Assembly: GCA_964035575.1 (NCBI GenBank)
Contig: OZ037840.1
Coordinates: 124,001-188,000, forward strand
Source: Rhynchopus sp. YZ270_cl-10
Lineage: Eukaryota
Reading direction: 5' to 3'
Length of the DNA: 64,000 nt
Shown: positions 7,162 to 64,000 of the stretch, in pieces
How positions within the stretch are numbered: position 1 is the stretch's first letter
Layout: each line of letters begins with the position of its first letter
Notes under the pieces: model-generated
Seen by the model: only the letters and a program-made list of their open reading frames with translations
What the model was told of the DNA's origin: nothing
Databases searched by the model: none
Position numbers and translations under genes: made by a program

Positions 7162-7505
7162 AACAATTTATCAAAAAAAAAAAAAAAAAGGGATTTTTGT
7201 TTCGGTGCCCATATTGTGTTGTGGCCCAGGTGAAGCAAGATGCAGAGGCACAAAAAGGAACTTCAAAAATTGGAGCTGGGGGTTTGTGTGCTGTTTTACA
7301 TTGTACTTTCGTTTCCCTGCCCGGTGCAACGGAAGTTGACCTTTGGGAGGAAGAGCGGGAGAGAGCAGTGGGGGGGAAGGAGGGTGAATTTGAAAAATAA
7401 AACAAAAAGTAAAAAACTTAAATCTGTTATCAATCCACCGATAATGCTGGGGGGAAAAAAAAGGAAAGCAGGGTTGTTTCTAGGGGGGTCGGGGGGGGGG
7501 GGTTA

Positions 7506-8700: not shown

Positions 8701-8761
8701 TACGGGGGGGGGTCACTGACCCCCCCCAGATTCTGGGGGGTCAAATTGACCCCCCCCGGGG

Positions 8762-9238: not shown

Positions 9239-9260
9239 CCCCGGGGGGGGGGGGGGGGTA

Positions 9261-11272: not shown

Positions 11273-11276
11273 TAGG

Positions 11277-12107: not shown

Positions 12108-12136
12108 CCTAGGGGGGGGGGGGGGGGGGGGGGGTA

Positions 12137-15334: not shown

Positions 15335-17149
15335 TCAGGGCAGGTGTTGGGGGTCGCACACCATGAGTGTGCTACTGGCAAGCTTCTTCACGTGCACAGA
15401 CACCTGCAGAACCTCGCACTGCGCAGGAATGTCAATAACGTTGTCGACTTCACTGTTCTTGTCACGCAACACTGCTGCCACGGCAGAGGCAGACAGCTCA
15501 CCCCGCAAGTACCCGCGTACAGCCGTGTTGTAGTCCTCCCACTGCTTGTCGCCTTTCAGCATGTACATCCACTCCGCTTGTGCAGGTGTCGCTGCCTCCT
15601 CCGGCACGACCAACTCAGCAACAACCTCCTCACGGGACTCACCAACTTCCACCTTGCAAGGAACCAGACGCAGTTGGTGTTCGCACTCAGATTCCTTGAA
15701 GCAGAGGCGGTTGCACAGCACACTGCACCCCAACACACGGCCGGCACGTTCTAGCACGTTCACGTCCCTCACCAGTGTGCCCACCATGCTGAAGCGGCGC
15801 ATCACTTCACACCCCATGTCACCACGCAGCACCTTCCCAGTCGCAACTCCCATGTTCACGTGTGGTGCAATGTTGTTGTCATCACCACACAGCAGCAATG
15901 TGGCAGCGTGCAGTGCTGAGGTTGCGTGTGACGCACACTGCTTCGACGTGTTGAACGAGCAGTGGATCCTGTCCCCAACAAAGACGTCCACCATCCCACG
16001 ACGCACTTCTGTTGCCTGCAACGTCTTCAGAAGAAGAGTTGTGAACAGGTCGGAGAAGCGTGCACTGTCCTCCTCCAAGCGGTGCAACGTGTCTTTGATG
16101 TTCAGTGTCAGCAACGTTGCACTCACAGAAGACAAGTCTAACGGCAAAGATGTCAAAGTTGCCATAGTAGGTAATAAAGAAGATGCCACTGAGCTGCAAG
16201 ACATCGTAGTGAGCTCATCTGTTGAGGGTACACGTGGAAAGACGGCCTTCCTAGGTGAGGCCAGTAGCTGATAGGTGGTCTTCCTACGTTCATAAGGCAG
16301 ACACGTCTGCGGGAGGTATGCCTTGTACACACGCAGGTTCTCCTCCAACTTCCGCAGTGCGTCCCTTATCCCCTCAGGCAGTTCAGCCTCGTGAACCGCT
16401 AGCAGTTCCGCCACCATCTCCACGTCGTACCCCGCAAGCAGCGACGCAATTTCTTGCACAGCGCTGATCGTCCGCTCCATTGATGCCTGCTCCTTCAGGA
16501 TATCGTGTGCAAACTTCCGTGTAGCGACAAAGTCTAACACGAAAACAGCAAGCGCCACTAGCAACTCATGACTCGAGTCACGTGCACAGGGCAGGTCTGT
16601 GCACCCTGTGAAGGAGTCAAAGTACGCTCTCCTCCCGTCTGCACCGCCCTGTGATGGTAGACCAGGCATGTCCAGAAGACCGAAGCGCACATATTCCTCT
16701 ATGCCCATTAGCAGTAGCCACGCAATCGTGCAGCAGACTACAGCTGCAGTGTAGCGTGCAGGTGTTTGCATCACAAGCAGCAGGTCCACCACCAGCACAA
16801 GTGTGTGTGCAGTGCCGCTGCCAAACGCACGTTTTGAGAAGTCGAAGCACAGTATGGCAACACCGTACAGCGACGCCACTGTGACGACGAAAGGCACACT
16901 CAGCGTTGTCTTCGTCAGCACGACTACTATACTCATACACGTTGTGCACATGAACAAGACACTCCCGATCATCTCAAGCGGCCTGTCCCCCACTGTACTG
17001 CTCACAGAGGCCAGAAACACCACAATGAACACAAACGATACCACATTCAGAGCCAAGAACAGTGTCCGCTTCTGCTGCTCCTTCTTGTCCAGCGTCCCGT
17101 CCAGCGACAGCACCGCTTCGAGCCATCGTGGAACCCTCAGATTCATCAT
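15335..17149 (-). CDS. Membrane-anchored class III cyclase-like protein, single degenerate domain (type I, copy 1)
   Basis: About 6 hydrophobic segments, a helical linker ending YKAYLP, then LLTLNIKD / VDVFVGDRIHCSFN / NMGVATGKVLRGDMG / RFSMVGTLV. Start MMNLRVPRW chosen by alignment with paralogs. Confidence 0.85.
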   Translation of the reverse strand: MMNLRVPRWLEAVLSLDGTLDKKEQQKRTLFLALNVVSFVFIVVFLASVSSTVGDRPLEMIGSVLFMCTTCMSIVVVLTKTTLSVPFVVTVASLYGVAILCFDFSKRAFGSGTAHTLVLVVDLLLVMQTPARYTAAVVCCTIAWLLLMGIEEYVRFGLLDMPGLPSQGGADGRRAYFDSFTGCTDLPCARDSSHELLVALAVFVLDFVATRKFAHDILKEQASMERTISAVQEIASLLAGYDVEMVAELLAVHEAELPEGIRDALRKLEENLRVYKAYLPQTCLPYERRKTTYQLLASPRKAVFPRVPSTDELTTMSCSSVASSLLPTMATLTSLPLDLSSVSATLLTLNIKDTLHRLEEDSARFSDLFTTLLLKTLQATEVRRGMVDVFVGDRIHCSFNTSKQCASHATSALHAATLLLCGDDNNIAPHVNMGVATGKVLRGDMGCEVMRRFSMVGTLVRDVNVLERAGRVLGCSVLCNRLCFKESECEHQLRLVPCKVEVGESREEVVAELVVPEEAATPAQAEWMYMLKGDKQWEDYNTAVRGYLRGELSASAVAAVLRDKNSEVDNVIDIPAQCEVLQVSVHVKKLASSTLMVCDPQHLP

Positions 17150-17379
17150 GTACAAGATACCCTGCTGTGTTGTGCAGGGTGGGGTGGGGACTGGATGGGG
17201 GTGGGGTGGAGGGTGCCATGAAGCAGAGTCGCTAGACGCAAGCACCCTCGTGGTAAAGACCTCATGCAAAAGCCTTCCTGTCGCTTGCTGCTGATGCACA
17301 ACGCACACACACACAGCTCTAATCGGCAGAACAGCAAACACCACTGCTTCGTTTTTTTTTTTTTTTTTGTTGATTTTGT

Positions 17380-17950: not shown

Positions 17951-18143
17951 CTGGTCAGAGGTCTGACCAGGTAATACCTGGTCAGATTTATGACCAGGTA
18001 CACCTGGTCAGATCTGACCAGGTACACCTGGTCATGACCAGGTATACCTGGTCATGACCAGGTGTACCTGGTCAGATGACCAGGTACCTGGTCACATTTA
18101 CCCAGGTAAGTACCCAGGCGCCCAGGTGACCAGGTACCCAGGT
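17951..18143. repeat. Tandem array of palindromic TGACCAGGT(N)ACCTGGTCA units
   Basis: About six palindromic ~20-bp units plus degenerate CCAGGT copies; overlaps the 3' end of the ORF at 18052. Confidence 0.85.
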
Positions 18144-26483: not shown

Positions 26484-26924
26484 TGCGACAACCCCAGCTG
26501 TATGTGATACTGTACACTCCTGCGCGTAGGTCCGTTCAGAAAACACGACAATGTGTATTGGTGATGCCTGTTAGTAGTCGTGTGGACTGCAGAAGAGCAG
26601 ACCAGAAAAGGTGGTTTGTGCCGTTCACACCGAAAAACAAAATAGCAGAGGCGATTTGCATAATATTAGTGAACAGATATTTACTTGACCCCTCCCCCGC
26701 TCTCCTCGTTGTATGCGAGTGCAAATGGAAATTTGCAGGCAGGCACGTTGAAGAGGGCCCAAACACATATTTTCTTCTTTTTTTTACAAAAATGCATTTC
26801 AAAGTGATGCTGACCACATATTCCCACCCACACCTAAAAAAATACCCGACCCTTTTTTGGCCCCAAAGTGGACCAACTGAAAAAGTGGCAAGGACCTGGT
26901 ACCTTGCGTTGGCAAACCGAAGTA

Positions 26925-27145
26925 CCAGATCCTGGCACCCTTTTTGAAACATGGTTCTAAGTTGCACCAGTACTTCTAAACACCCCGAAACCGCCTGGGT
27001 ACCCCTCTAGATAGGTTATGGGGTGAAAATATGTGGCTTTGGGGGCTTTTCTGACCCTCATTGGGTCAGGAAAGCCGGTAACGCCACATATTTTCACCCC
27101 ATAACCTATCCCGAGGGGTACCCAGGCGGTTTCGGGGTGTTTATC
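26925..27145. repeat. Decayed fragment of the family A foldback element
   Basis: Matches the CCCTTTTTGAAACATGGTTCTAAGTT...GGGGTGAAAATATGTGGCTTTGGGGGC module of 7506-8700. Confidence 0.75.
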
Positions 27146-30761: not shown

Positions 30762-33630
30762 TCAATCCCCTACATACTTGTCAGGCTTTGCCACCATCAT
30801 GAGGGGCCGCCCTTCGGTCACGTGAGAGTCCACGAAGTCAGCAAAGCGTGCGGTAAGACGCTGCATCGAGAGTGAGTGGCGGTCCATCATCTCGCGCGAG
30901 AAGGTGTTCCGCGCGACAAGGCGGAGAATGAGATTGCGTGTCAGCGTCGGGTCGAAGAGAGGCACACCGAAGTACAGAGAACATGGCGTCACCGTCACGT
31001 CAGCGTCATCGATGTGTGGTGTGTCTGCAGCTCTGGGCGACGGGGAAGGTGAAGGGGTGGCAGTTGTGGCGGGCGATGGCGCAGACGAGCTCGCACCGTC
31101 CCCCCACAACCCATCCAGCACCTTCGTGTACTCCGTCTTGCGCGCCGCAGCGAGCGCGACACTCCGCGGCACTGCGGGATGGACGGTCTTCTTTTTAGGG
31201 CGGTCGATTACCTGCAGAAGAGGTTGGGGTGGGGGGGGTGTGTGAGGGGTGTGTGGGGGGAAGAGAATTGCTAATAGCCGACGGCAAAGTAAATGAATTT
31301 GACTTGAAATACAACCTTCACATGATAATTGATTGATTTTACTTAAGGCAACGGTGAAATCACCGTGGAGGTTAAGGGGATTTAGCATATTTTCAAAAAT
31401 GTCAAAAATATGCATTTTTTTTTGTATTATCTTGGCAGTACTGTTATGTCCATCCCCTTCCTTACATTACACATCCCCATACCATTTTGAGGTGCCCCAC
31501 TGACGCCCCTAGGTCGAATGTCTCCATCGCCGTCTGCACATAACCATTCACAACCCCCTGCAGACGCGCACTGAGCACCCCAGCACCACCCGCACCACCA
31601 CCACCACCACCCTCACTATAGCTCGGACTCTCTCTGCCTCCATCCTCCTCCTCCCCCTCCCCCTCTTCCCCCTCCTCCGCTTTTGCCTCCTCCTCCTGCG
31701 GCGGCGGGAACGGAACGTGAATGACTTCAAGCTCCCGCCCTACTCTCTCGTGCGCGACCAACATGACCGGTTGCCATTGAAGTTCTTCGTTGACACGCAA
31801 CAGCGCGTTTGATGCATGCAATACCGTAGGATGAGAGTCAAGCGACCACGGGTACAACAACACCGATGCAACGTGAGGAGGTGACAACACCGCAGGCAAC
31901 CTTTTCAACACGGTTCCTCGAGTAAAAACAAACATTTTCGGACCGACCCCAATCTCGGAGGCAGAAAACAAAAAAAACCAAGCACTTGCCATTAGACTAA
32001 CAGGGTTGCCATAATAACCTCTAAGATGCCCGGTCAAGCTTAGCGGCGAAGCGAGAGGAGACATAGAAAGGATGCAAGCATAATTTTTGTTCAAAATGCG
32101 AATTCGTGTGTCTGGGTCAAGAGAATTGAGGGATTCGGCCCGGATTAGATCGAGCCGACCGTCGCAGTCTTCAATACCGAGGCTACTGTTGTGGCGGAGG
32201 TGCACCAATAGCTCCCGCAACGCAAGCGCATGGTCGAAGTACTTCCGCACCTCCCCTTCCTTTGAGGAGGAGTCGATCCCTAAGAGCTGTTCTGTAAGAA
32301 GTCCGAGAAGTTCGTCGGTCATCTTGCCTGCTTCGAACAATGTGACAGCATGCTGTTTCATGACCCCAAGGTTGCCCATCATGAGGTACGCAGTCAGTTC
32401 AGAATCAAACACAAACCCGATTCGCTTCTTCTCATATGAGTCCTGAAGAGAGACGGAAGAAGCATCCTGCGTTGTGCTGTGTTGTGCCTGCGAGGGGGAG
32501 TTCTGGCTTTGTGGAGACGATGTAGTGCTGACCTCAAATTTTGCCAAAGATGCACGCCATGTGTGATGCAAAGCTCCCCGCTTCTCAGCCTTATCTAAAA
32601 GGCCGCGTGCAGTGCGTTTAAACGCCATCCCCGTTCTGCAATAAATCGCAACAGCGTTCGCGACCTCGGATATATCTTTTTCGAGCATCACCGCCAACTC
32701 CGATACGGTCGTTCTTGAGTCAATTGAAACAAGAATGTCGTACAGCAGCTTCTCAAACGGGTCTGATGAGGTGCGGTTCATCACAAAATTCTGCAAAGGG
32801 GGGACCACGATTTGGTCGTTTTCTGCGATGATGATGTGGGGCTGCAGGATTTCCTTTTGGAAGAGAAACTCCAACGATGCCTTGGGATACGAGCACGCCA
32901 GCGGAATGGTATACCTGAAGGGCCGTGCAGGAGAGTTAAGCACCGCCTTTGCATCAGCCCCTCCGCTGCCCCCTTCAGCATGCGCAATAATCGTATCAAT
33001 CAAATCTGCTATGTTGCTTGGCAGTTCTTTGTAGTATTTGTCCAACTTCTCTGACACAACGTGCAGCCCCCACCAAGGTTCCAATTCTGCCTCTTTGATA
33101 ATCTGTTCTGGAAGCGCGCCTGCAACATTTGTAGCCCCAATTGCCTTGCCAATTTGCTGCATGAGGGACCCTTTCTTCACCTTCGAGCCGTTCATGATGT
33201 GGATGTATTGGTTGCGGCCTACCCCGGTCAACCGCATGCAATCGATTGCAGTGAAGTTGGGCATAGAATCGTATGACTTCTCTGCCTTGAGCATATCGTT
33301 GAGGACGGTACGGTAGTGGCCGAAGGGCGTTGTTTTGCAGTAGGTCATGATGGATGTTTCGAATTTGTACGGATAGAGGAGCCGTCGTTCTCGGCAGTCG
33401 TGCATCATTTTCGTGTAGTACTCCTTTTCGCCGAGGGGGATGTCCCAAGTGCCGCATTGCTCATAAGACCATTGGTTAGCAAGCGCAAACCCAAGCAGCT
33501 CCGCAGAATGTTCTCTCGCATTGGTCGTCCGCCTCACCGCGGCAGGCAGCTTCTCAAAGGAGACCCCCTGGCTGATCAGCTCCTTCAGCTTTGGAACACC
33601 TCCGGAGAAGTTTTCCATGTCGAGGCTCAT
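30762..33630 (-). CDS. FAM91A1: FAM91A1-like protein, two exons: 33630-31483 and 31211-30762
   Basis: Motifs LLYPY, TPFGHY..EKSYDSMPNFTAIDCMRLTGVGRNQYI, VPPLQNFVMNR..DPFEKLLY, KRIGFVFDSELTAYLMMGNL and LYFGVPLFD. A phase-0 GT..CAG intron (31482-31212) joins HLKM|VIDR in frame. Confidence 0.88.
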
Positions 33631-50370: not shown

Positions 50371-52533
50371 TCACATGTCATGCTTCGTTTCAAACAAGCC
50401 GTACTCTCGTTGCGGCAGGACCTGGTACAACCCATCACGTCCTTTGCCCTCAGCCTTCAGCGAAGACTTCAGCGCAGCAGGAAGCACAGTCCCCAACGGA
50501 GGTTCGTACAAACACTGCTTGCCCTCCCGTGCCGTGTCGCACAGCGCCCAGCTTCGGTACACAGTCTGTCCCATCACAGTCACAAAGCGTTGCTTACGAG
50601 CACCAACATCTCCGAGCCGCACTGCACCCGTCACAAGCCCTGCACCAGACAGCACTGCAGTTCCCAAAAGGCGTTGTGCAAACCGCACTGCGTTCTCCAT
50701 GTGTGCAGGTGCTGGGCGGGTCAGGTTCCACCCAACACACACACGGCTCCCGAGCAGCGTCACCAAGGTCCCACCGTTCTGGTCCAGTACGACTGTGAGT
50801 GTGGAGAGGCCCACACTCAGGTTGCGGAGTGACGTATGGTCGCAGTCCTCGTCTCCAGCAAGATGCACAGTGCCCACAGTTGCGTCGATGGGAAGTATCG
50901 GGGCGTTGCCGTGACCTGACATGCTGTTCTCCACAACGGAACCTGAGTTGGATTTCAAACTGAGGGAAGAGTCGCACTTATGAAGGGACGTCCCCTGCTT
51001 CAGTGCAACAGGTTCTTTGAGGGGAGTCTGCCTTCGTCCCGCAAGTGACAAAGGCCACACGCAGCAAATGAACGTTAGCCCTGACACACCCTTCAAGTCC
51101 AGTGCCTCCGCATCCCCAACAACAGCAGAGCAAGACATGCACTCGGCTGTGTACAGGTCAGAGGGGATTGCAACAGCACCAGGCTTGCATGCGCTCTCAA
51201 GGCGGGCAGCAACGTTCACCGTGTGGCCAAAGTAGTCTGTCCGTCCCGTCAGTGCGTTCTCTTCCACAGTCACAGGGCCGCTGTTCACACCAATGCGCAC
51301 AGTCAGTCCGCCCCAAAGTGGTCCCTGTTCAGCACAGATGGATACATCTTCGAGGAGTGAGGCAGGCCATGAAGCACCACGCAGGAGTTCGTGCACACTC
51401 AGGCCAAAGTTCACTCCGTCCTGTGTTGACGTGAAGGCAATCATGAAGGCGTCGCCGATGGTTTTGACTTCGTACCCTCCGAACATCCCCATCACCTCAC
51501 GCATCACAGTGTTGTGTATCTTCAGTCCAGCACGCATCCCATCAGGTGCGTGCTCCCAGATAGATGTTGACGAACGTATGTCTGTGAACGCAAGGGTTGC
51601 TGTCTCGCTCGTTAGCCCGGGTGCCTCCACACACAACCGTTGCAGTACACTCCGCTGGTCCCTGTCACCGTCCTCCTCCATCTCCATCTCCTCAAACAGC
51701 GCAGCAGGAAGGTAGGGTTTGTACTTCCGCAGGTTCTCCTCCATTGTCTGCAGCGTCTCGTACATCTCCTCAGGCAGCTCTGAGCCGCGTGCCGCAAGCA
51801 TCCGTGCCACACCTTCCACGTCGTACTTCGCAAGCAGCGACGCAATCTCCTGCACAGTGCTGATCGTCCGCTCCATTGTTGCCTGCTCCTTCAGGATGTC
51901 ACGTGCAAACCCTCGTGTTGCGATGAAGTCAACAACAAACACCAATACTGCACCCAAGGTAATGGTCACAGCGGGAGCGCCACACGGGAGCGTATCACAG
52001 CTGGCCTTATCTTCAAGGTAAGCCCTCCTCCCCAACTCACCATCCTGCGGCACAAGACCAGGTAGGTCGAAGATGCCAAACCTGAAGGACTCCTCCAAAG
52101 CCATGAGAGTCAACCACACAAGCACAACAAACACCAACCCAGCAGTGTAACGTGTGGGCACCTGCATGATCAGCAACATGTCTAAAACGAGCACGAGTGG
52201 TGTCCAATACATGTCACCGTTGCAGCGAGCAAGCAGATCGGCACAAAATATACATGCCACGTACGCATAACAAACACCAACCACGACAGGTGTCGTCAAC
52301 TTCTTCTTGCACAAGATGTGCACCGCCGAAAGCAGTGACATGACCACCCCTGCTAGCGTGAACCAGCGACGCAGCCCGCCGTATTCGTAACTGGTGGCAG
52401 AGAACACCAACAGAAACAGAAGCGATGTACAGTTGATCCCAAAGAACATCTCCCGCTTCCTCCTCTCCTTTGCGTCAAGTGTGCCATCCAGCGTCAGTGC
52501 ACCCTCAACACAACGTGGCCACTGCAGCTTCAT
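50371..52533 (-). CDS. Type II adenylyl cyclase, copy 3
   Basis: Same motifs as type II copy 1. Confidence 0.9.
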   Translation of the reverse strand: MKLQWPRCVEGALTLDGTLDAKERRKREMFFGINCTSLLFLLVFSATSYEYGGLRRWFTLAGVVMSLLSAVHILCKKKLTTPVVVGVCYAYVACIFCADLLARCNGDMYWTPLVLVLDMLLIMQVPTRYTAGLVFVVLVWLTLMALEESFRFGIFDLPGLVPQDGELGRRAYLEDKASCDTLPCGAPAVTITLGAVLVFVVDFIATRGFARDILKEQATMERTISTVQEIASLLAKYDVEGVARMLAARGSELPEEMYETLQTMEENLRKYKPYLPAALFEEMEMEEDGDRDQRSVLQRLCVEAPGLTSETATLAFTDIRSSTSIWEHAPDGMRAGLKIHNTVMREVMGMFGGYEVKTIGDAFMIAFTSTQDGVNFGLSVHELLRGASWPASLLEDVSICAEQGPLWGGLTVRIGVNSGPVTVEENALTGRTDYFGHTVNVAARLESACKPGAVAIPSDLYTAECMSCSAVVGDAEALDLKGVSGLTFICCVWPLSLAGRRQTPLKEPVALKQGTSLHKCDSSLSLKSNSGSVVENSMSGHGNAPILPIDATVGTVHLAGDEDCDHTSLRNLSVGLSTLTVVLDQNGGTLVTLLGSRVCVGWNLTRPAPAHMENAVRFAQRLLGTAVLSGAGLVTGAVRLGDVGARKQRFVTVMGQTVYRSWALCDTAREGKQCLYEPPLGTVLPAALKSSLKAEGKGRDGLYQVLPQREYGLFETKHDM

Positions 52534-53233
52534 TGCAACAACCCCAGCTGTCTGTGTCAAGACTGCAACTCAAATTGGTCGACCTTTTTCCTTTCTGGTG
52601 TACAAACTGTGTAAAAACTGTGGGTGCAGTGTGGTGACAAAGTGCACTGCCAAGTTCTGACCTAAAAAGTGTATGGTGCCGAGGTGACCAAAAATTAGAT
52701 TCATCACCAAAAATGCAATTCAGTCTGTTTGGACACTTTTGAACATGCGAGATGTGAACAGGTTAGCATGGCTTGAGACGCTGTTCTAACTTGTCATCGT
52801 GGCGTCCCCAAAAACTCGCGATAGGTCACGTTGAGCCATGAGACATGCTACGGTACTCTGGGTCTCAGGAACATGCAAGCTATGAGGGTTCGTGTACGGT
52901 TGTATGGTTTAGTCTTAAGGGTGTGCACTGTACGTAGGGGGTGTCTGACAATACCGTACTAGGAACTATTCTGGGTTGTAACTGTTTTTGGGACAAAATA
53001 GAAACTAACTTCAGGTTCTGAATAAAAAGAAAACAATGAAAAACAACTTTTTCGTTTATCGCTCCGTAAGCTTGTTGTGTTTTTTCGCTGAAGTGTGTGT
53101 TGTATGAGAGAGAAAAAATAATGAGTGAGAAAACACAAGCTGGCGGGCACGCACCTTCCGTCGTTTCTATTTCCTATTGTCAACCTTGCACGGTGCAGTC
53201 TGTCGTGCTTAGAGTGTGTCGAAAACAGACTTA

Positions 53234-53462
53234 CCCCCTGAGTCCGACAGTCGGACCCCCTGAGTCCGACAGTCGGACTCAGGGGTCCGACAGTCGGACT
53301 CTGGAGTCCGACAGACGGACTCTGGGGGTCCGACTGTCGGACTCTGGAGTCCGACAGTCGGACTCTGGGGTCCGACAGTCGGACCCAAAAAAAAAAAATT
53401 TTTTTTTTGGGCCGAAAAAAAAATTTTTTTTTTCGGCCAAAAAAATTTTTTTGGCCGAAAAT
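53234..53462. repeat. Tandem palindromic satellite (GAGTCCGACAGTCGGACTC, ~21-bp period) followed by An/Tn palindromes
   Basis: About 7 units seen directly. Confidence 0.85.
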
Positions 53463-53763
53463 CGCCTTGTATAGTCACTACAGTACACATGCTATAACCA
53501 AAATAGCCGTATTTTGACTGAAAATTTGACTTGAAAATTTTTTTCCTTGTTTGGTCAATCTGAGGTTTTCTTTGGATTTTTTGGGCCATTTTATGACCTA
53601 CCACGCCCAATTTTTTTGGGAGGGGGAAATTATTTTTTGGTCAAAAAATGGCCTTGTTGCCTACTACTGGGTATAGGCTTGTTCAGAGATGTGTGTATTT
53701 GGTGTACCCGGACATGGTCAAAACACATGATTTTTGCACATCATTTTTTTGGTGTGGGGGGGG

Positions 53764-55547
53764 AACAGACTAGCATGACAACACGAGCCCCGACTGCCGG
53801 TCAAGGGGGTTTTAATGGATTTTAAGCGAAAACTTCATTAAAACTCATTTTCTTTGGGGGGGGGTTTTTTTTTTTTTGTTGGTCCAAACCAGGGCGATCG
53901 GTAAGAGATATGATGGTTTTTGGGGGATAAAAGAAAGAACAAGAAAGCAACAAAAGGATACCAGTAAAAAAAAGAACAATAATGTATTCCGCAAACCCGT
54001 AAACCCGCAAGGGTTTACGGGTTTGCGGAATACAGTACGGTTGCGTATACCCCGGCGGGATGGGAAAGTGATTTTTTTTGCCTCTTTGGGAAGGCTCGTT
54101 TTTTCATTTATTGTTACAAAGTAACAATTGTTACTGTAACAATAAATGGAAAAACGAGCCTTCCCTTTTTTGCTTTTGTGTCTGTCTCCCATTTCCTTTT
54201 CTCAGACTCAAACACATCAAAAAATGGCACCCAAAACCAAAGCGGCACCCAAACCGGCAGCCAAAGCGGCACCGACTGCGTCTGGAAAAAGGAAAAGGGA
54301 GGACCAGAATGGACAACCACAACCGGCAAAGGCGAATACACCGGAGACTGACTTTATCACTGCGTACACCCAGTCGCAAGCAGGGAACGTGATGGTGCTC
54401 TCGCATCTAAAACTTTTATATGCGAGAATCACCGGCGCCACTGTGCACCCCAACTCCCCCACCATGATGAACGCATTGGTGAACGTGTACCCGGGACTGG
54501 ACACGAAGCTCAGCGTGACCCAACACGACGCCGCGACTGAAGACAAAAGGTTGCCATCATACTTTAAGGTATGCTCCCTTATTTGGTATTACACTATGCT
54601 ACTACATTCATTTGTATACATAGGTCGCCAAGAGGGCAACAGACGGCAAGCACCTTGTGCAGCTGTATGGTGTGTGTCTTCGTTCTTTCATGATCACTGG
54701 GTGGAAAGCAGAAACCTCTGCCAAGAACAAACTCTACGTGCGAGTGAGGGAGAGCATCCTCCCTAAGTACAGGGACTGTGATATGTGCTCGCTCTACTCA
54801 GCGAAGCCTAAGGCGCAGCTGTCGACTCTGCAGGAGAAGACTTTCCCCACCCTCACCCCTCTTCCTGTCGAAAACGACACGCACACAATGCGCATCGAAG
54901 GGTGCTTTGTCGACATCGCATACCTTGTGAATGCGAATAAGGTTGACCTGCAGTGTACGCGCAGAGTGCCCGAAGGCTCAACCCATCCCTCGGGTGTGTA
55001 CAGGGTGGATTACTTCTTGCCCCGCCCATCCCGTGAGGACAAGGCCATTTCCTGCGCTCCTGTTGACGGGCAGATTGCCTTGTGGGAGGTAAAGGTGTGT
55101 TACTTGGTAGCTTTTCCTGCAACTTTTTGACTGTTATCCAATAATAACTACACAGATTGTTATGGAGCAGGTGAAGGAGAGCAGGCAGGGGCTGGGCAAG
55201 GTGGACCGCCAGAAGTACATCGATCTGATGGGGGTGGACCTCGGGGAAGGGGAAGAGGAGGAGGAGGAGGAGGAGGAGGGTGAGGGTGAGTCGATGTTAC
55301 CATCGGCCGGTGTCACCGTCCTTTCACAGGATGCTTTTTCCGGAAACCCGCAAACCCAGGTTGTTGAAAACCTCTGATTTTTTTTTCAAATTTTTACTGG
55401 TATCCTTTGTTGTTTTCTTGTTATCTATTTTCCCTGAGGACCTCCCCCCCCAGTGAACCGTTTATACGGTTCACTGGGGGTCGGTACTGCATTTGGGACC
55501 CCGTTCTGCGTTGGCAGTCGTATCTAGCGTTGTCATGTTAGTCTGTT
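53764..55547. mobile_element. Putative long-TIR (Mutator-like?) element carrying a spliced gene
   Basis: AACAGACTAGCATGACAAC..CGACTGCC is inverted as GGCAGTCG..GTTGTCATGTTAGTCTGTT. Subterminal CAACAAAAGGATACCAGTAAAAA is inverted near 55391. A related end lies at about 45397-45530. No TSD found. Confidence 0.55.
54224..55377 (+). CDS. Hypothetical, probably nuclear protein; three exons (54224-54568, 54624-55094, 55156-55377)
   Basis: Polypyrimidine-AG just upstream; N-terminus MAPKTKAAPKPAAK..GKRKRE. Two short GT-AG introns join three ORF-track pieces in frame (second donor could be 55089). Acidic C-terminal tract. Confidence 0.7.
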
Positions 55548-55865
55548 TCACACAATAAGATAAGATGGAGTCCCTTACATGTGATTTCCCCCCCTCTTTT
55601 TGCTTTCGTACCATGCATCATGATCAAGTGAGAATCCAAAAGAAAAAAAAAAAGAGGGAGGGTTTTTTTTTTTTTTTTTTGGTGAACAACATTTTGACCT
55701 TCACAGTGGGCTCGTAAGGACATTACGGGAGTGATGCCGTCGTAATTACGGCATCATGACGAGGGCACACTTCGTCATGCTGTCGTAATTACAACGAACG
55801 TCGCCAACATGATGACGTCATCATGACGTCATCATGACGAGGGGGTGCGTTCCTTGATGACCTCA

Positions 55866-55954
55866 ACGATGGTGAAGTAAATGACTTGACTTGTGGTTTC
55901 ACCGTTGTAAGCCAACGGTGAAACCACAAGTCAAGTCATTTACTTCACCATCGT
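55866..55954. repeat. Perfect 42-bp inverted repeat with a 5-nt loop
   Basis: Arms 55866-55907 and 55913-55954; loop TAAGC. Confidence 0.92.
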
Positions 55955-57719
55955 GTCCCCAGCCCGACTTTGGGAAAAAACAAACAAAAATCTTAACGTA
56001 CACTCTCTGTTGATTCTAAAACGGGGGAGGGTAAAAAAGGCGTGAAAGGTAAATTGGGGAAGAGGTTGAAAAGTTGGAACGCTTCCTCACCCCAGATCAC
56101 ACTACAATACAAAGGTTTGGGTTTGAATAGGGTGGGTTCTTCTGACGATGAAACCTACTCCCTTCTAAACTTTCTTTTTTTTTTTTTTTTTTTTGAAAAA
56201 TAAATAAAACTCCTCTCGAAATTGTTCAAGATTGAACTGAGAGAAAGAAGAAACCCCAAACCCTCCCAGACCAAACGGTCTAACCTGTTGTATTGACATA
56301 GTGTGGGGAGAATGAGGAGCACAAGAATCGTCTTCGCGCATACTAAAAGATTTCCTACGATATGTCACAAGTGTCATGTCACCGAAAAATCTTAACGTAC
56401 ACTCTCTGTTGATTCTAAAACGGGGGAGGGTAAAAAAGGCGTGAAAGGTAAATTGGGGAAGAGGTTGAAAAGTTGGAACGCTTCCTCACCCCAGATCACA
56501 CCCAGGACCCTTGGGACCCTCAAGGGACGCTACGCGAAAAAACTTCTTCAGCGAAACGGGATGATCCATCCAGGAGCGCGGGAGGAGATCTGGCCCGAAA
56601 TTGTTCTGTGTGGCTGCAAATAAATAGAGTAACTGCGTAACTGTCTCCAACGATGCAGGGATTGAGATAAAAATGATATATGATGGCCCGAAGTCTCGCG
56701 TGCTTCGTCACTTTCCTTAGATACGTTCTTGCAACGCAGCAGCTGCGTAGGATACCACAAAGGCATTGTTCCGATGATGAAAATCCCCCAACAGTAATTT
56801 AGGCACGCACGTTGTAGTGTTCACGTAATGAGCATGGTGTAGACCGGGTGCGTGAGAGATTGGACGATGGTCGTATTCACGAGTCTGGGTGCGGCAAAAG
56901 GATCGGCCCTGCAAAACAAGTGAACTTCTAACGGTCACCAGTTGTCTCTCTTGGAAAACAACAGTCCAGGTTGCCTCAACATCGCTAGCTGTGGTTTAGA
57001 AGCTTGCCTATATTTTGCAATCGGCGTCGAGTAATCGCTGTCGTGCGTCGGAAATCGCTTCGTCTACTATTTCGATGTTCCTGCACAACGGAGCGGAGGC
57101 TCTCTCTCTCGACTTCTTGTTGCTGCCTGCTCATTTTTGGTGTTGTACAGTGTCGGGGCACTCCGCGAAAACGCCAGCTTCGACATCTACTACGAATCAT
57201 GACGTTATTCCTGGTGTGGACTTGCGATTTCGTGTCCATGAAAATGAGGCTGTACAAGGTCACCCCACGCGTTGTACCCTCTGATTTCGTCAGTTTTGTC
57301 GAACTTGGTCGCTTGCTCCCAAGGAAGCTTGTTGTTGTATGCCCGCACGTAGTATTTCCACGTGTCATCTCCCATCACGAGGGCCGGCTGAATCGGTAAC
57401 GCCCGTGTTTCTGAGAAGTGAAACTGCCCAGGTGTTCTCTGCAGCATCAACGTCCATTGTTCTTTGTTCTGTTGTCTTCCACCTCACCATGCGTATCAAT
57501 CTTCAGGGCTTCAGCAATGGAAACCTCTCTCGGAGGGCTTACAGTAAACTTTGCTGAGTACTTCACCTCTTAAACGAGAACCCTCAAAAGTTGCCTACTC
57601 CGGAGGACTTCGGTCGACAAAAGGTTTCCTCATCTTGAGGACTGCCGAATAGTGGCCTCCTCTAGGGGATTTCAGTCAAACAAAATACAGCATCGGCAGT
57701 AAGGTCACCACAAGTAAGT

Positions 57720-58680
57720 ACTCCGCATTTCATGTAAACGAACTTGTATCCTCACGGGGAAGTCCTCGAAGGCGTCGGTCGTGGTCGCGAGCAGGTTGAC
57801 GTCTCTCTGAAGCAGGTGGGCTTCTGTGGAGCTGTTGCTGCTGGTATGCACGGAAGCAGATAAGCGGCCCCCGCAGCTGGGTGGGAAGGTGTAGTGCCTG
57901 GTAAGTTCTTGTTGCAGACATCCTTCGGAGTGCTCACCCCGTCGTCCGTGAGTCTGTGTAGTAATGGTAGTAGTTGTCTCCAAGGAGCGCTCCCCTGCAG
58001 AAAAGATGGGTGTGCTTGTTCGTCAGACACTTCGGTGATGGTCTCACGAAACGACGCAACGGCTCGTAGATCTTCCACTTGACACAGTCATGTAGTCCTC
58101 CTGAAGATCCTTCAGACAGATATCAAAGCGAAGCTCTCCCGCTCCGGCGATGGTGTGTTCTCCCGACTCCTCAATCGAGCACTGCATAAGCGGGTCGGAC
58201 TTCGGCAGACGCTTCAGTCCCTCAACAAGCTTGGGCAGGTCGGCGGGGGAGGAGCACTCCACAGCGACACGCACAGCGGGCGATACAGTGTACTTCATGT
58301 CCTTCAGGGGGTAGCACTCGCTCTCCTTCTCGTCAGTTGGTCGCAGTCTTCACAAATGTTACCACAGGGCACGTCCTCAACACGGCCTCCTGGTAACGCT
58401 CCATTCTGAGCAGGGTACAATCACTGCGGCGCTGGATGTTCTTCACAGCCATGTCCTTCTTGGTTTCGGATTTGTAGTTGGGACCCCTGGTGCGTGCCTT
58501 CTGTCCGTCCTTGATCTTCCCAGAGAAAGACACGACCGAAACGCGGTGAAATGTGTCTTGTCTGCCGCGGAAACATCTTCGACACGTACATGAATAGGGC
58601 GGAGGGTGATCAGTGCGACGGGGTCGTAGTTCTGCAGTCCCTGGAAATAGTTGACTGCACGGTAGAAGGTGCAGAAACTT
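57720..58680 (-). pseudogene. EEF2: Decayed partial copy of eukaryotic elongation factor 2 (domains II-IV)
   Basis: Pieces in shifting frames: [96 protein letters not shown] and SFRETI. Confidence 0.88.
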
Positions 58681-59582
58681 TTCGACATCCGCACACCCCT
58701 TTTGGACTTCGGTGCATGTGGCACAGGCTCCAAAAAACCGCTTGCCATCATAGTTGAAAGTATGATGAGGCACACTGTCTCGTGAAGTCGATGTTGTAGT
58801 TTGGCAGGAAACGTAACTTTTTTGAATCCTGTCGTCTGTGTCGAGGACCTTAATCGACGGTACGAAGGAAAATGCCTGGACATCCTTGTGTTGAAACCAT
58901 CTGGGCAGTAAAGCCTGTTGATGTCTGACACCGGTGGCCACGCAGGGCAGTCTGAGAGGATGCCGCCTTGGAAGTCGAGGGCGGTTCCTTCACAGGTCGC
59001 CGTTTGCGAGTGTCGCGCTCTGTGCACTTGAGTGGGCTTGGGTGGTCAGATGGGGTGGTCGGAGAAGGGAGCTGGCTGCCACCTCTAGGTACTGCGAGAC
59101 AAACTTCTCTGGGGTGCGGGTGATTGTAAATGTACTGTGTCCGTGTTGGCAGATCTGGACAGCACATCCGGGAATCTCCACGTAACTGCTGTCCTCTGTG
59201 TATATCCCAGCCTTTGAAGGCCTTTCGAAATTAATGCCAAACCCCGTAGGCCGGATGATGTCGTCAAAAAACGCTGACTGAACCCCTAAAGCTGACTCTG
59301 GGCTGCGCGCAAAACAGCGTCGTAGAGCACGTTTTTCGCATACGCAGCGCGTGTGGGTGTTGTAACTGGCAGCATCTTCACAGACCAAAACTCCAAAGGG
59401 TGCCCTTCTTATAGGGACTTGAAACCCAAGTCAGCAGAGTGACCTTCCTTTTAGGGACTAGAACACGGCAGACCGGCGAGGGGTGCCCTTCTTATAGGGA
59501 CATTTGTCGGAGCGGCGAAAGAATGTAGAATCAGGGGTTCCGCTACCGTATAAGATTCAATTTGGTTGAGGGTCGAAGGTGT

Positions 59583-60232
59583 GGAAATAAACAACAAATG
59601 GTTCTCATACCAAAGTTGTTGTGGCGGCGTAGGTGTATAAAATAAACAACAAGAGGTTCTTATACCTAGTTGTTGTGGCGGCGTAAGTGTTGAAAATAAA
59701 CAACAAGAGGTTCTTATACCTAGTTGTTGTGGCGGCGTAAGTGTTGAAAATAAACAACAAGAGGTTCTTATACCTAGTTGTTGTGGCGGCGTAAGTGTAT
59801 AAAATAAACAACAAGAGGTTCTTATACCTAGTTGTTGCAGCGGTGCATGTGTAGAAAAATAAACAACAAGAGGTTCTTATACCTAGTTGTTGTGGCGGCG
59901 TAAGTGTATAAAATAAACAACAAGAGGCTCTTATACCTAGTTGTTGTGGCGGCGTAAGTGTTGAAAATAAACAACAAGAGGTTCTTATACCTAGTTGTTG
60001 CAGCGGTGCATGTGTAGAAAAATAAACAACAAGAGGTTCTTATACCTTGTTGTTGTGGCGGCGTAAGTGTTGAAAATAAACAACAAGAGGTTCTTATACC
60101 TAGTTGTTGTAGCGGTGCATGTGTATAAAATAAACAACAAGAGGTTCTTATACCTAGTTGTTGTGGCGGCGTAGGTGTAGAAAATAAACAACAAATGGTT
60201 CTTATACCAAAGTTGTTGTGGCGGCGCAGGTG
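59583..60232. repeat. Minisatellite, 12 units of 54-55 bp, each with an internal hairpin
   Basis: Consensus AAAATAAACAACAAGAGGTTCTTATACCTAGTTGTTGTGGCGGCGTAAGTGTTG. Confidence 0.92.
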
Positions 60233-60736
60233 TCCTCGTACGACGGAGAAGCGTCATGACAGTGAGAATACCTCACTTGTTCACATGTTCTGTACTTCTT
60301 TTTTCTTTTTTTTTTTTTTTTTTTTTGAAAAATAAATAAAACTCCTCTCGAAATTGTTCAAGATTGAACTGAGAGAAAGAAGAAACCCCAAACCCTCCCA
60401 GACCAAACGGTCTAACCTGTTGTATTGACATAGTGTGGGGAGAATGAGGAGCACAAGAATCGTCTTCGCGCATACTAAAAGATTTCCTACGATATGTCAC
60501 AAGTGTCATGTCACCGAAAAAAAAAAAAAATGGGTCAAAAAATCGACTTGTCTTTGGTAAAACAACGAAAATTTGGGTATGACGTCGTCATAACGTGGGG
60601 GTGCCCCCGTCATGACGACGTAGCGCGCGTATTTTCACCCCGTTTCTGCCCCCATCACTCGTCACGTAATGTCATTCCGAAGTCCACCGTGTATTTGTAC
60701 ACATTTTCTTATCACATTTATCCTCCAGTGCCCAGT

Positions 60737-62656
60737 ATGTCACAAAATGATCAGTCACGGCAAGGTCAGAGTTTCCCCGAAACGCTGGAGGCCATGCACC
60801 TAGAAGGCGAGGGCCCGTCCCGGCGGTGGTTCGGCAAGGCGAACAAGCGTCATCGTGAGGAAACGGGGGAATCCGCGGGGTTGAGCCCGAAACGCATGCG
60901 TGTCATAGAGGAGCCGCAGCGCGAAGAGACGAGGGAGAGGCTGCACAGGGGGTTGCTTGGTACATGCGAGTACTTGGAGGAAGAGTTTGTCGCTCTTGGC
61001 CACATCAGGTCGTCAGCTGCGCTGGCCTTGGTGCTGTACAGTGATGGCTACACCCCATTCGGCATGAAACCGAGTAATGCACGCACGCGCTTCTCCGTGG
61101 GCATCATAGACCCCCTCTCCGGCTTATCAACCAGGGGATTGACGGTGGTTGACCTGAAGAAGGCGGAGTATGCGGTGTGGGAGCACGGCACCCTCATTGA
61201 CGATATTGCACTCGTGCACAGGTCAAGTGTCATGAGGAACGTGGAGCGAAAGGGCAAACCGCGGACTCTCGTGAGCCGGTTCTTCGTGCTGAAGATCACT
61301 GGTGACCACCTTGACCAGTGGTGTAAGGTGAAGGGTTGCGGGGGGAGGGGCCACAAGTGTACCATGTGTGCCATCCCAATGTCGCAGTGGCTGCTGATGA
61401 CGCACCGCTTTCCCCACCTCTCCTTGCAAGAGATGTCGGATGCCGGCTTTCCTTCTTTCCTCGCAGGAGTAGCCCCAAACGCTCACTTCGTCAGCCCCCC
61501 CCTGCACGACCTCAAGGGTATGGCTGAGTGTTTGCGCGATGTCATGAAGCCCCAGACCACTGGTGTCTTCGACAGTGTGTGCCGACACTTCAGGTACGAC
61601 CTGAGCGGGGGGAACTCCAAAGGGAGCCAAATGCGGGACGTGATCCGCAAAATGGCTGAACTGGCGGATTACCCCCTCGTCGACAGACTCATGTTCATTT
61701 CTTTGAGTGAGCTGTCGAACTTCAGGTACGGCGACGTCCCTTGGAGGCACCATGCGAAGGCTGAGCCCGCGGCTCTCTTCCCCTTTCTTCGCGCACGCAT
61801 CGCAGGCCACGTTTTCTTGTGCCTCATGGAAACCGTCTCCCCCAAGAGCACCCTCAGCACCTACTGCCACAGCATGCAGCACTGGTGGAGTCCGCTAGAT
61901 GCTGTTCCTCTCCTCAACAACGACGAGCCAGAGGAACAGGAGAACGGACAGAGGAAGCGTGGTGCGAGTAACACGAGTGTCGCCACCTACGAAGAAATTC
62001 AGGCAACCTCAGAGGTGGCGAGGAGGGCGAGGCAGACCCCGTGGAAGGTAGCGGACCTATCTGATGAAGGGCTAAAGGGGAAAAAGGACATCATCCTCTG
62101 TCCCTGCATCAGTAGCACGCATGCGATGGTACTCGCGACGTACGTTTTGTGCACGCAACTCAGTGAGAAAAAAAGTGGTTTTGTTTTTTTTTCGGGGGGA
62201 TACTGTCTTTTTCGTTTTCCAAAAGGGAGAGGACGCGCAAAAGTGTGCCTCTGTTCTACAGACCCTCCATCTGATGAAAAATTTGAGCTTTTTGTAGCCA
62301 GTGATAACAAATTCAATGAGTTTGAAGCTGCTGCAATTGCAGAGTGTGACGAGGAGAACGGTTCACAAGGGAATGAGGAACCGGAGGGAGACGGCACTGC
62401 GGCGTGTGATTTTTGTGAGAAGCCAATGGCCGCAAATTCTCTTGCGGTTCACATTGACAACACACATCGCAGGAAAGACAGCAGTCTCAGTGCTGTTTGT
62501 CCCATATCTCCGTGTAGCAAAACAGTCAAATCTTTGACTAGGCACATGGAGTTGAAACATCCAGATTTTTTTTTTGAAGAGAACAGATGCAAATTATGTT
62601 TTTTGTTGTTTCAATCTTCTGAAGAATGGGTAGCACATTGTGAAGGTCATGCGTAG
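60737..62656 (+). CDS. RAG1/Transib-like DDE transposase with C-terminal C2H2 zinc fingers (639 aa from ATG 60737)
   Basis: Motifs in RAG1-core order: YSDG..RFS, TGD, CTMC, GV..PPLHDLKG, TYCHSMQH, DEPEEQENG. C-terminal CDFC..H..H, CPISPC..H..H and CKLC..H..H. The ATG follows a pyrimidine-rich AG. Confidence 0.75.
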   Translation: MSQNDQSRQGQSFPETLEAMHLEGEGPSRRWFGKANKRHREETGESAGLSPKRMRVIEEPQREETRERLHRGLLGTCEYLEEEFVALGHIRSSAALALVLYSDGYTPFGMKPSNARTRFSVGIIDPLSGLSTRGLTVVDLKKAEYAVWEHGTLIDDIALVHRSSVMRNVERKGKPRTLVSRFFVLKITGDHLDQWCKVKGCGGRGHKCTMCAIPMSQWLLMTHRFPHLSLQEMSDAGFPSFLAGVAPNAHFVSPPLHDLKGMAECLRDVMKPQTTGVFDSVCRHFRYDLSGGNSKGSQMRDVIRKMAELADYPLVDRLMFISLSELSNFRYGDVPWRHHAKAEPAALFPFLRARIAGHVFLCLMETVSPKSTLSTYCHSMQHWWSPLDAVPLLNNDEPEEQENGQRKRGASNTSVATYEEIQATSEVARRARQTPWKVADLSDEGLKGKKDIILCPCISSTHAMVLATYVLCTQLSEKKSGFVFFSGGYCLFRFPKGRGRAKVCLCSTDPPSDEKFELFVASDNKFNEFEAAAIAECDEENGSQGNEEPEGDGTAACDFCEKPMAANSLAVHIDNTHRRKDSSLSAVCPISPCSKTVKSLTRHMELKHPDFFFEENRCKLCFLLFQSSEEWVAHCEGHA

Positions 62657-64000
62657 TATCAGATCAGGTACAGTGGGTGAGGGCGAGGATCATGCATTTT
62701 GTTTTTTTGTTTTTGAAAAGTTGGTTGTATTAGTGTAGCCACCCTAGAGTGTGCTCCACTAATATTTTTTTGTTTTTTTTTCATTTGGGTATTCACTCTT
62801 TTTTTTTGTTGTTCACTTCATAATCTCATCATGAAATGCTTGCCCCACCCTTTTTTTTTCACCCACCCACACCCACACCTCCCCACCATCCCTCAACAGG
62901 ATTACACCAAAACAATGAAAATTGGGTTTTAAGTACCCTATTTCTCTCAGAAGTCAGTCACTGCTATTGCCATTTAACCCAGGGAGCATAGCTAGTGCAA
63001 GAAATTCGACCTTTGGAAACTTTCCGGAAAGTCTGTCCTCTGCTCGCGGAGGACTAGACACAAGAAAATATTGCGTTCCCCCAGAAAACCAGTGCACAAT
63101 TCACACTCCTTGTGGGTGGTCTTGTTGCCTTTTCGTCATAGTAATTTTGGCCCAGGCATGTTCTTGAAGCATGACAATTTAGTGTGTATGGGGCAGGGTG
63201 TTGTTTTGTTCTGAATTCTCTTTGTTATAACATCTAAGTCAATTGCGGGTGGTGGTTTGTGTAGCGTGAGGCACTCTTTTTAACAAACTTCCTGCAGTTG
63301 CTATGCACTGTTATTTCTTCGGATTTATCATCATACAGCGTAACATAGTGGATTCGCCTGGTCGACACAACCTTTGATAGATATGGGATAACCAACCCCC
63401 TTCGACCCCTCGTGGGTTCACTAAACAAGCCCTCGTGGTAGTTAAACGCGATTGACATTTACATTCCTAGAGATGAAAGAACAAGACAACACTTCTGTAC
63501 CCGCGCATCAAAATTGTGGAAAACTTTGCACCCCAAACACCCTCAACAACGCCCGCCAAAAGGCGCCCCTTGTTGCTGGGAGTTGGTTCTCATGTTTGAT
63601 ACCTGCACAGCGGGAATTCCTCTGAGTCCAACGCATGTTTGGCCTGTCTGCGGCGTTGCACTTCAGGTGCACGAAGACAGGGTCTGGTGGTAAATTTTGC
63701 GTAGTACTGCGACGTGGTACTGCGTGGGTCTGGGAATATGGGTACCTGGGTACAGGATATTGGTTGTGTAAGACATCTTCCACCATGCATTGAGGAGGGT
63801 AAGACAGTGTTCGCAGTTTCTACCTGATAGCATTACAACATTTAACTTCTCCACGGGGGTCTTGGGCCGTTCACTCGGTTATACCTTGACTACCGGAAGA
63901 TATTCTTGAGGCCTTTTTGGTCTCTAGAATATCCGGTCTTCCCGAACGGAGGCACACTTTGTGTGTTACTACGACCTGGCAATTTCCAGCAGTAGGTTAA

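What the first reader, a model, noticed from the sequence alone, without database searches (positions are those of the whole stretch)
55702..60691. RSS-heptamer-like inverted ends delimit a 5-kb cargo, with the transposase gene just outside
Seen: the left end begins with the exact RSS heptamer CACAGTG and the right end with CACGGTG. Each is followed after 10 or 11 nt by a shared GACATTACG box and then GAGTGATG, a bipartite heptamer-spacer-box layout. The transposase ATG is 45 bp outside the right end and there is no TSD. Inference: either a nested or rearranged Transib-like element, or a cassette the neighbouring enzyme could excise or invert, changing its own upstream region.
Basis: partly seen in the sequence, partly recalled or inferred. 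Interest (0 to 1): 0.75.

Follow-up and report, generated by a model that had tools for sequence, protein, structure and literature searches.

The report
Nested transposon relic beside RAG1-fold transposase
The two matching CAC-starting ends are real, but they likely belong to a small, gene-less jumping-DNA element of about 360 bases that two later insertions swelled to 5 kb; the more notable part is the gene next door, whose protein is predicted to fold like the antibody-gene recombinase RAG1 and belongs to an apparently uncatalogued transposase family whose named members come from diplonemid protists.

Summary
The ends are real and extend further than reported: about 110 nt of imperfect inverted similarity (score 68 against 34±5 in shuffles, 0 of 500). 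They are not RSSs: there is no nonamer at 12 or 23 nt, no 12/23 asymmetry and no 5-bp TSD. Of the 4,990 bp, 4,536 are a decayed multi-copy element with split direct repeats (VIPER/Ngaro layout, carrying an eEF2 fragment), and 91 are a high-copy CAC-ended hairpin MITE. That leaves about 363 bp. That MITE family mostly abuts TA, and the cassette's flanks (TT/TA) are one change from a TA duplication. Contigs from three studies cross the right end into the transposase gene without a break; no empty or inverted form was listed. The neighbour (639 aa) keeps a DDE triad and CMCT-type Cys/His motifs, has no Pfam core match, and its model (pLDDT 94) best matches RAG1 (Z 18), then HzTransib (16). It has 35 relatives; the named ones come from diplonemids, and some are recorded on many contigs. 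Verdict: likely a nested non-autonomous CAC-ended transposon beside a new diplonemid lineage of CMCT-type transposases. A V(D)J-like cassette is unsupported (about 5%).

The parts
55702..55811 (+). Left end of the CAC-ended element: CACAGTGG, GACATTACG box, GAGTGATG, first palindromic subterminal unit (55738-55796)
   Evidence: one unbranched X1 contig 55693-55895
55810..55863 (.). Second palindromic subterminal unit (TCATGACG/TGACGTCA motifs; 11-bp tandem at 55812-55839)
55865..55955 (.). Hairpin MITE of a separate high-copy family (42-bp perfect arms; family end CACGATGG; first base altered here; flanked TC/TC)
   Evidence: I3; 65 X1 contigs end at 55955/55956 and run on into unlike flanks
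55986..60521 (-). Decayed multi-copy element with split direct repeats (likely VIPER/Ngaro-type retroelement), 4,536 bp
   Evidence: repeat layout; multi-copy depth; VIPER layout; RT/YR not detected
60307..60521 (-). Repeat A1 (215 bp, identical to 56175-56389)
56385..56501 (-). Repeat B1 (117 bp, identical to 55986-56102)
56175..56389 (-). Repeat A2
55986..56102 (-). Repeat B2 (72-bp spacer 56103-56174 between A2 and B2)
59585..60226 (.). 54-bp tandem array, 11.8 copies, near the 5' end of the nested element
58047..58349 (-). Captured, broken eEF2 fragment (EFG_III domain); flanking frames look like more of eEF2 by eye
   Evidence: Pfam PF14492 E 6.7e-11; eEF2 chains E 8e-33
60572..60691 (-). 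Right end: CACGGTGG, GACATTACG box, GAGTGATG, palindromic subterminal unit (60566-60622); outer flank TA
   Evidence: crossed by contigs in X1, X4, X6
60692..60736 (+). 45-nt pyrimidine-rich leader ending in AG motifs before the ATG (possible splice acceptor; inferred)
   Evidence: sequence
60737..62656 (+). Open 639-aa DDE transposase gene, predicted RAG1/Transib fold: D103, D190, E400; C208/C211, H378/H382; C-terminal Cys/His zinc-finger region
54224..55377 (+). Gene A: orphan three-exon ORF (343-345 aa, acidic tail), same strand, upstream; link to the transposase unproven

Best explanation
The interval is likely a small non-autonomous cut-and-paste transposon (about 360 bp, CAC...GTG ends with palindromic subterminal units) that a CMCT-type transposase probably inserted at a TA site 45 bp upstream of a predicted RAG1-fold transposase gene, and that was likely enlarged later by a hairpin MITE and a 4.5-kb split-direct-repeat retroelement. 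Shown: the ends, the two nested repeats, their multi-copy depth, the unbranched right junction, and the conserved DDE motifs. Inferred: the 2-bp TA duplication (left copy changed to TT), the order of insertions, the retroelement class, and cleavage at the CAC termini. Not known: whether this gene's own enzyme or one of its relatives in the genome moved the element. The RSS look is the generic CA..TG terminus of the CMCT clade, and the element now appears fixed.
For: End similarity of about 110 nt, 0 of 500 shuffles reach it. Length budget 4,990 = 4,536 + 91 + 363. The A1..B1 A2 B2 repeat order matches VIPER. The nested parts are multi-copy: about 700-800 depth for X1 internal contigs and about 30,000 in bins over the A/B repeats and MITE, against about 330 for the ends and the gene. 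In the MITE family the base after GTG is T in 48 of 65 (X1), 41 of 58 (X3) and 43 of 56 (X4) listed contigs, and the next consensus base is A; the copy here has TC/TC flanks. Flanks within one change of TA/TA arise by chance about 4% of the time. The subterminal motif 55735-55768 is shared with a multi-copy family elsewhere in the runs. CMCT elements share CA..TG ends and 2-5-bp TSDs (PMC12730594 passages). The transposase family is mobile: near-identical proteins are recorded at 22 contig places (P0020 cluster) and on 6 contigs (P0054), and decayed 92% and 86% fragments exist. The window holds other long inverted-repeat pairs that bracket host genes.
Against: The 2-bp duplication is not intact (TT vs TA), and no family copy was seen with both flanks except the MITE here. 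No second full copy of these ends was shown: none in the window, and the rows that would give exact ends elsewhere were cut. Landing 45 bp from a transposase ATG by chance is unlikely unless the hop was local, and no ends were found for the transposase gene itself, which is what rival 1 predicts. RT, RNase H and recombinase remnants gave no Pfam match. The left junction is not formally bridged (9 laid letters outside).
Confidence: 0.6

Rival explanations
1. The ends are this transposase's own, and the layout is a rearranged autonomous element. For example, a non-autonomous derivative hopped into the parent's 5' region and the duplicated left parts collapsed, or the right end deleted adjacent DNA up to a TA site just before the ATG. 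The gene's other end would lie beyond the very high-copy repeat that starts near 62750.
For: Precise CAC ends without a matching TSD; CAC ends fit a CMCT/RAG1-fold enzyme; no other ends found for the gene upstream or downstream in the window; slight extra depth over both ends suggests a few diverged copies elsewhere (weak).
Against: No end-like sequence in 62657-64000 or 52600-55701 above shuffle level. The cassette interior shows no similarity to the gene's flanks.
Confidence: 0.27
2. A functional RSS-like cassette: a fixed, domesticated RAG1-fold enzyme excises or inverts 55702-60691 in some cells and so changes its own upstream region.
For: Open ORF with the DDE motif residues kept; database variants differ by one residue each; relatives are in diplonemid transcriptome assemblies; both heptamers and boxes are intact although two insertions lie inside; the ends face the way RSSs face in deletional joining.
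Against: No nonamer and no 12/23 asymmetry. Contigs cross the right junction unbranched in X1, X4 and X6 (three studies, one possibly the window's source), and none of the 15 listed joints (of 68) joins 55701 to 60692 or changes strand there. The family behaves as mobile elements. The interior is decayed repeat DNA.
Confidence: 0.05
3. Gene A and the transposase form one two-gene element (as AanRAG2L lies upstream of AanRAG1L in the same direction), with the CAC cassette inserted between them.
For: Same strand and the same depth (about 310-340 in X1, about 3 times the seven listed MITE-bearing contigs from other loci); gene A has an acidic tail; faint WD40-type Atlas neighbours (0.82); precedent in PMC9435367.
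Against: An Atlas score of 0.82 is at shuffle level; no homolog was found; no enclosing end pair was found; gene A sits inside its own degenerate inverted repeats; depth is no copy number.
Confidence: 0.05
4. The two ends are unrelated fragments brought together by chance in a repeat-rich nest.
For: The region is dense with repeats, and the subterminal motifs occur in a multi-copy family.
Against: Both ends start in register at CAC, face each other, and share the GACATTACG box found nowhere else in 64 kb; 0 of 500 shuffles reach the score.
Confidence: 0.03

Closest known systems
CMCT clade of DDE transposons (EnSpm/CACTA, Mirage, Chapaev, Transib, Plavaka, ESTA, Lanisha; PMC12730594, passages)
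   Same: [quoted passage not shown] ESTA was likewise linked to RAG1 by HHpred and makes TA duplications.
   Different: No Pfam match for the core in the query or among the 25 of 37 families shown for 20 aligned members; first Cys of C(2)C is Ser in 13 of 19 rows; C-terminal zinc fingers; host group not mentioned in the passages read. Not placed on a tree with known lineages.
Transib (HzTransib, PDB 6pqx/6pqn; PMC1131882 passages)
   Same: Predicted fold (Z 16.2, rmsd 4.8, 390 aligned); single gene of similar size; CAC ends with a second conserved box; non-autonomous partners.
   Different: No A-rich nonamer at 23 nt, no 5-bp TSD, about 10% sequence identity, and the gene lies outside the ends.
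RAG1 / ProtoRAG / AanRAGL (PDB 6xnx, 6b40; PMC9435367 whole text; PMC10462144 passages)
   Same: Best structural match (RAG1 Z 18.2, rmsd 4.2, 400 aligned; BbRAG1L 14.5); one end carries the exact heptamer; asymmetric bipartite ends.
   Different: No demonstrated RAG2-like partner, no 12/23 pair, no 5-bp TSD; 11-13% identity. RAG1 and HzTransib are the only CMCT-type structures among the listed matches, so the match does not place it in the RAG1 lineage.
VIPER/Ngaro tyrosine-recombinase retrotransposons (PMC6681497 passages)
   Same: Split direct repeats in the order A1..B1 A2 B2, identical copies, similar sizes (T. cruzi VIPER 173/219 bp; here 215/117 bp).
   Different: 72-bp spacer between A2 and B2, a 54-bp tandem array, a captured eEF2 piece, and no detectable gag, YR or RT domains.

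Membership tests
Transib | RAG1-core-like transposase fold | tested here: met
   Model pLDDT 94; HzTransib Z 16.2, RAG1 Z 18.2; Foldseek E 3.7e-4 and 6.9e-7. Predicted model only.
Transib | Ends begin with CAC | tested here: met
Transib | Heptamer + 23 (or 12) nt + A-rich nonamer with AA at positions 5-6 | tested here: not met
   At most 4 of 9 matches at spacings 11-13 and 22-24, none with AA at positions 5-6; definition from PMC1131882
Transib | 5-bp TSD | tested here: not met
   ACCTT vs TATTT; one copy only, so decay cannot be excluded
Transib | Transposase gene enclosed by the TIRs | tested here: not met
   Gene is 45 bp outside; no enclosing pair in the window
Transib | Groups with Transib in a transposase tree | not tested
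   No Transib, Chapaev or ESTA protein sequences were returned by the tools; the tree holds only this family (20 of 57 proteins)
RAG/RAGL | 12/23 asymmetric signal pair | tested here: not met
   Spacers 10 and 11 nt to the first box; total asymmetry 4 nt
RAG/RAGL | Linked RAG2-like kelch propeller gene | tested here: inconclusive
   Gene A exon 2 only: no Pfam family, no homolog, Atlas WD40 0.82 at chance level
RAG/RAGL | Programmed deletion or inversion at the signals | tested here: inconclusive
   Contigs show only the joined form at the right end; contigs drop rare variants; no raw reads were offered
CMCT clade | DDE triad | tested here: met
   D103 in 16 of 16, D190 in 19 of 19, E400 in 17 of 17 rows that cover the column, of 20 aligned; assigned by alignment and fold, not assayed
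CMCT clade | C(2)C and H(3-4)H between second D and E | tested here: met
   C208/C211 and H378/H382 in the window's protein; H378 and H382 17 of 17, C211 19 of 19, position 208 Ser in 13 of 19
CMCT clade | 5'-CA..TG-3' termini | tested here: met
   the link between these ends and this enzyme is inferred
CMCT clade | 2-5-bp TSD | tested here: inconclusive
   TT/TA for the cassette, TC/TC for the nested MITE, family flank mostly TA
ESTA (CMCT, TA TSD) | TA TSD and sequence affinity to ESTA transposases | tested here: inconclusive
   TA flank suggestive; no sequence comparison with ESTA was made; the paper's supplement was not opened
VIPER/Ngaro retrotransposons (nested element) | Split direct repeats A1..B1 A2 B2 | tested here: met
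   vs PMC6681497; 72-bp spacer extra
VIPER/Ngaro retrotransposons (nested element) | gag, tyrosine recombinase and RT/RNase H ORFs | tested here: inconclusive
   Frames are broken; Pfam finds only EFG_III in 16 stop-free pieces and in three frames read with X at stops

The most novel reading that the evidence does not exclude
A diplonemid-type protist has fixed a RAG1-fold transposase next to its own pair of heptamer-ended signals, and the enzyme excises or flips the intervening 5 kb in some cells: an independent, V(D)J-like self-editing locus far from animals. A milder form, which I put at about 0.6, is that this is an undescribed CMCT lineage with a RAG1-like fold, C-terminal zinc fingers and 2-bp TA duplications that is still mobile in diplonemids.
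Probability: 0.05. Interest if true: 0.85.

Novelty: new variant of a known kind. Interest (0 to 1): 0.4.

Why it matters
The cassette itself is probably ordinary transposon debris. The neighbouring enzyme family matters more. RAG1/Transib-fold transposases are the source of antibody-gene recombination, and I found no report of them in diplonemids or other Euglenozoa (searches; text of the PMC9435367 supplement; the D. papillatum genome paper passages list TATE, MULE and Helitron; Repbase could not be searched). A divergent, still-mobile branch with heptamer-like ends but a likely 2-bp duplication would add an outgroup for how heptamer recognition and 5-bp target capture arose, and could supply a native transposon tool for diplonemids. 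If the cassette were really excised, it would be a second origin of RAG-style programmed rearrangement.

Tried and rejected
No whole genome is held, so the genome-wide motif count could not be run. Idea that gene A's exons splice in frame into the transposase, putting the cassette in an intron: dropped, because full-length relatives of 500-700 aa start at the equivalent of ATG 60737 and gene A exon 2 matches none of 56 fetched proteins. No RNA holder listed. Single-sequence fold failed (pLDDT 34). Word-index protein searches found only the protein's own cluster and P0022. No loci with ends from relatives: viral 0, metagenome 0 then one 1,026-bp fragment without ends, L001, prokaryote genomes 0. 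Sequence search of solved structures found only zinc-finger matches among the rows shown; the viral fold library gave one hAT-like match. No Rfam match in 52000-64000. No enclosing end pair for the transposase: best 25 of 9,870 CA/TG pairs against 36 for the cassette; no second transposase remnant in the window. X4 and X6 do not cover the interior of the left end; this is a hole, not absence. A complex prediction of the transposase with gene A exon 2 was not run, so binding is untested. Earlier-findings look-ups by sequence and place were empty.
Full report
Observation. The left end at 55702 reads CACAGTGG and the right end at 60691 (minus strand) CACGGTGG; GACATTACG follows after 10 and 11 nt and GAGTGATG after a further 1 and 4 nt. 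The ATG is 45 nt outside and no repeat of 2-10 nt flanks the pair. The heptamers alone mean little (34 and 17 copies in the window), but the box occurs only at these two places. The end regions align with score 68 against 34.2±5.4 for 500 shuffles, none reaching it. The similarity runs about 110 nt, through palindromic subterminal units present twice on the left and once on the right.

They are not RSSs. At spacings 11-13 and 22-24 the best match to the nonamer is 4 of 9 and the key AA is absent; Transib ends keep that AA and make 5-bp duplications (PMC1131882 passages). CA..TG ends with 2-5-bp duplications are common to the CMCT clade, and one lineage, ESTA, resembles RAG1 and duplicates TA (PMC12730594 passages).

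What the cargo is. Of 4,990 bp, 4,536 lie between split direct repeats: 215 bp at 60307-60521 = 56175-56389 and 117 bp at 56385-56501 = 55986-56102. On the minus strand this is A1..B1 A2 B2, the order reported for VIPER and Ngaro (PMC6681497 passages). It holds a 54-bp array and an eEF2 fragment; no RT or recombinase domain was detected, so the class rests on the repeat layout. A further 91 bp is a perfect hairpin belonging to a high-copy family whose copies end at ...CATCGTG and run on into unlike flanks. About 363 bp remain: the size of a non-autonomous element.

Target duplication. In the hairpin family the base after GTG is T in 48 of 65, 41 of 58 and 43 of 56 listed contigs (X1, X3, X4), with A as the next consensus base (280 loose-end rows were not shown). 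The copy here has TC on both sides (chance about 7%). The cassette has TT and TA, one change from TA/TA (chance about 4%). This is suggestive only: I saw both flanks for no other copy, and the two families need not share an enzyme.

Is it excised or inverted? No genome is held and only contigs were offered. Single contigs cross the right end with more than 150 letters on each side in X1 (60533-60904), X4 (60517-60870) and X6 (60518-60904), from three studies, one of which may be the window's source. None of the 15 listed joints, of 68, links 55701 to 60692. At the left end one X1 contig runs 55693-55895 at the same depth as the gene, but only 9 laid letters lie outside, below the tool's bridging rule; X4 and X6 leave a hole there. 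Contigs drop rare variants, so rare somatic products are not excluded. Extra depth over 55710-55770 shows related subterminal sequence at other loci; the rows giving their ends were cut. The whole region (gene A, both ends, transposase) lies at about 330 in X1 and 310 in X4, about three times the MITE-bearing contigs listed from other loci (103 and 109; 1.7 times in X3). That may be ploidy or near-identical copies; depth is no copy number.

The neighbour. The ORF 60737-62656 gives 639 aa. Pfam finds only a zinc finger just below cut-off. An exhaustive search found 35 relatives at 27-92% identity. I looked up clusters for 20 of them; three records carry names, from Lacrimia lanifica and Rhynchopus euleeides transcriptome assemblies, so the host is likely a diplonemid (inferred). 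D103, D190 and E400 are invariant in all rows that cover them, as are C211, H378 and H382; position 208 is Ser in 13 of 19. A 36-row alignment gave a model with pLDDT 94 whose best matches are RAG1 (Z 18.2, rmsd 4.2, 400 aligned), HzTransib (16.2), P element (14.6) and BbRAG1L (14.5) (Foldseek E 7e-7 for RAG1; wide search). The family is mobile: the P0020 cluster is recorded at 22 contig places with three members 99.4-99.6% identical to the representative, and P0054 on 6 contigs, the longest of the same length as the contig holding a split variant of this gene. A 92%-identical fragment matches a stretch where depth rises in X1 and X4. No ends for this gene were found in the window; from about 62750 a repeat of very high depth takes over.

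Mechanism. Most likely (0.6) a gene-less CAC-ended element was cut at its termini by a CMCT-type enzyme and inserted at TA in the gene's leader; a MITE and a retroelement then landed inside; all is now fixed. Next (0.27) the ends are the gene's own and the layout comes from self-insertion or adjacent deletion, known behaviours of cut-and-paste elements (recalled, not from a call). A working RSS-like cassette (0.05) and a two-gene element with gene A (0.05) are not excluded.

Novelty. Searches for Diplonema with Transib (0 papers), Transib with Euglenozoa (1, not relevant on its passages) and diplonemid with transposase (6 listed, none relevant by title and abstract start) found no report. PMC9435367 (whole text) names no euglenozoan, and six host terms were absent from its supplement text, though picture figures there could not be read. 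PMC10161547 passages list TATE, MULE and Helitron. PMC10462144 was read in passages; other papers were seen only in listings. Repbase and subscription journals were not searched. I rate the cassette as ordinary and the enzyme family as a new variant of the CMCT kind; it works like Transib/RAG1 in fold but fails Transib membership on TSD and nonamer. Interest 0.4.

Noticed in passing
window 54224-55377 (+): Orphan three-exon gene (343-345 aa, GT-AG introns of 55 and 61 or 67 nt, acidic tail) inside degenerate inverted repeats (53764-53798/55513-55547, 53929-53970/55391-55431); no homolog found for exon 2.
   Followed up: partly
window 55865-55955: Member of a high-copy CAC-ended hairpin MITE family (about 90 bp) with a likely 2-bp TA-type duplication; a shorter look-alike hairpin lies near 31345-31367.
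   Followed up: partly
window 57950-58600 (-): Broken eEF2 fragment captured inside the multi-copy split-repeat element; X6 and X7 contigs match 58105-58145 and run on unlike, possibly the source gene.
   Followed up: partly
window 11277-12111/14492-15302 and 13357-13925/17379-17940: Two interleaved long inverted-repeat pairs (94% and 91% alike); the second brackets a 669-aa host-type ORF (15335-17344). A third family of nested foldbacks spans 7483-13341, with a short copy at 26880-27143.
   Followed up: partly
window about 62750-64000: Repeat with summed depth over 1,000 times that of the neighbouring gene in X1 and X4; no long ORF.
   Followed up: no
window 53233-53384: 21-bp palindromic tandem array (GTCCGACAGTCGGAC core) within a high-copy repeat; CACTACAG begins nearby at about 53476, reminiscent of a CACTA end (recalled).
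   Followed up: no
window 15335-52560 (-): Tandem array of more than ten membrane proteins with nucleotide-cyclase-like domains (motif recalled, not searched), two architectures.
   Followed up: no
window 17960-18135: Array of short palindromic CCAGGTACCTGG-type repeats next to a foldback end.
   Followed up: no
proteins P0020/P0047-P0053, P0054, P0003/P0040-P0043: Multi-copy, near-identical relatives of the transposase on megabase contigs: the best candidates for defining true ends and TSD of this family.
   Followed up: partly
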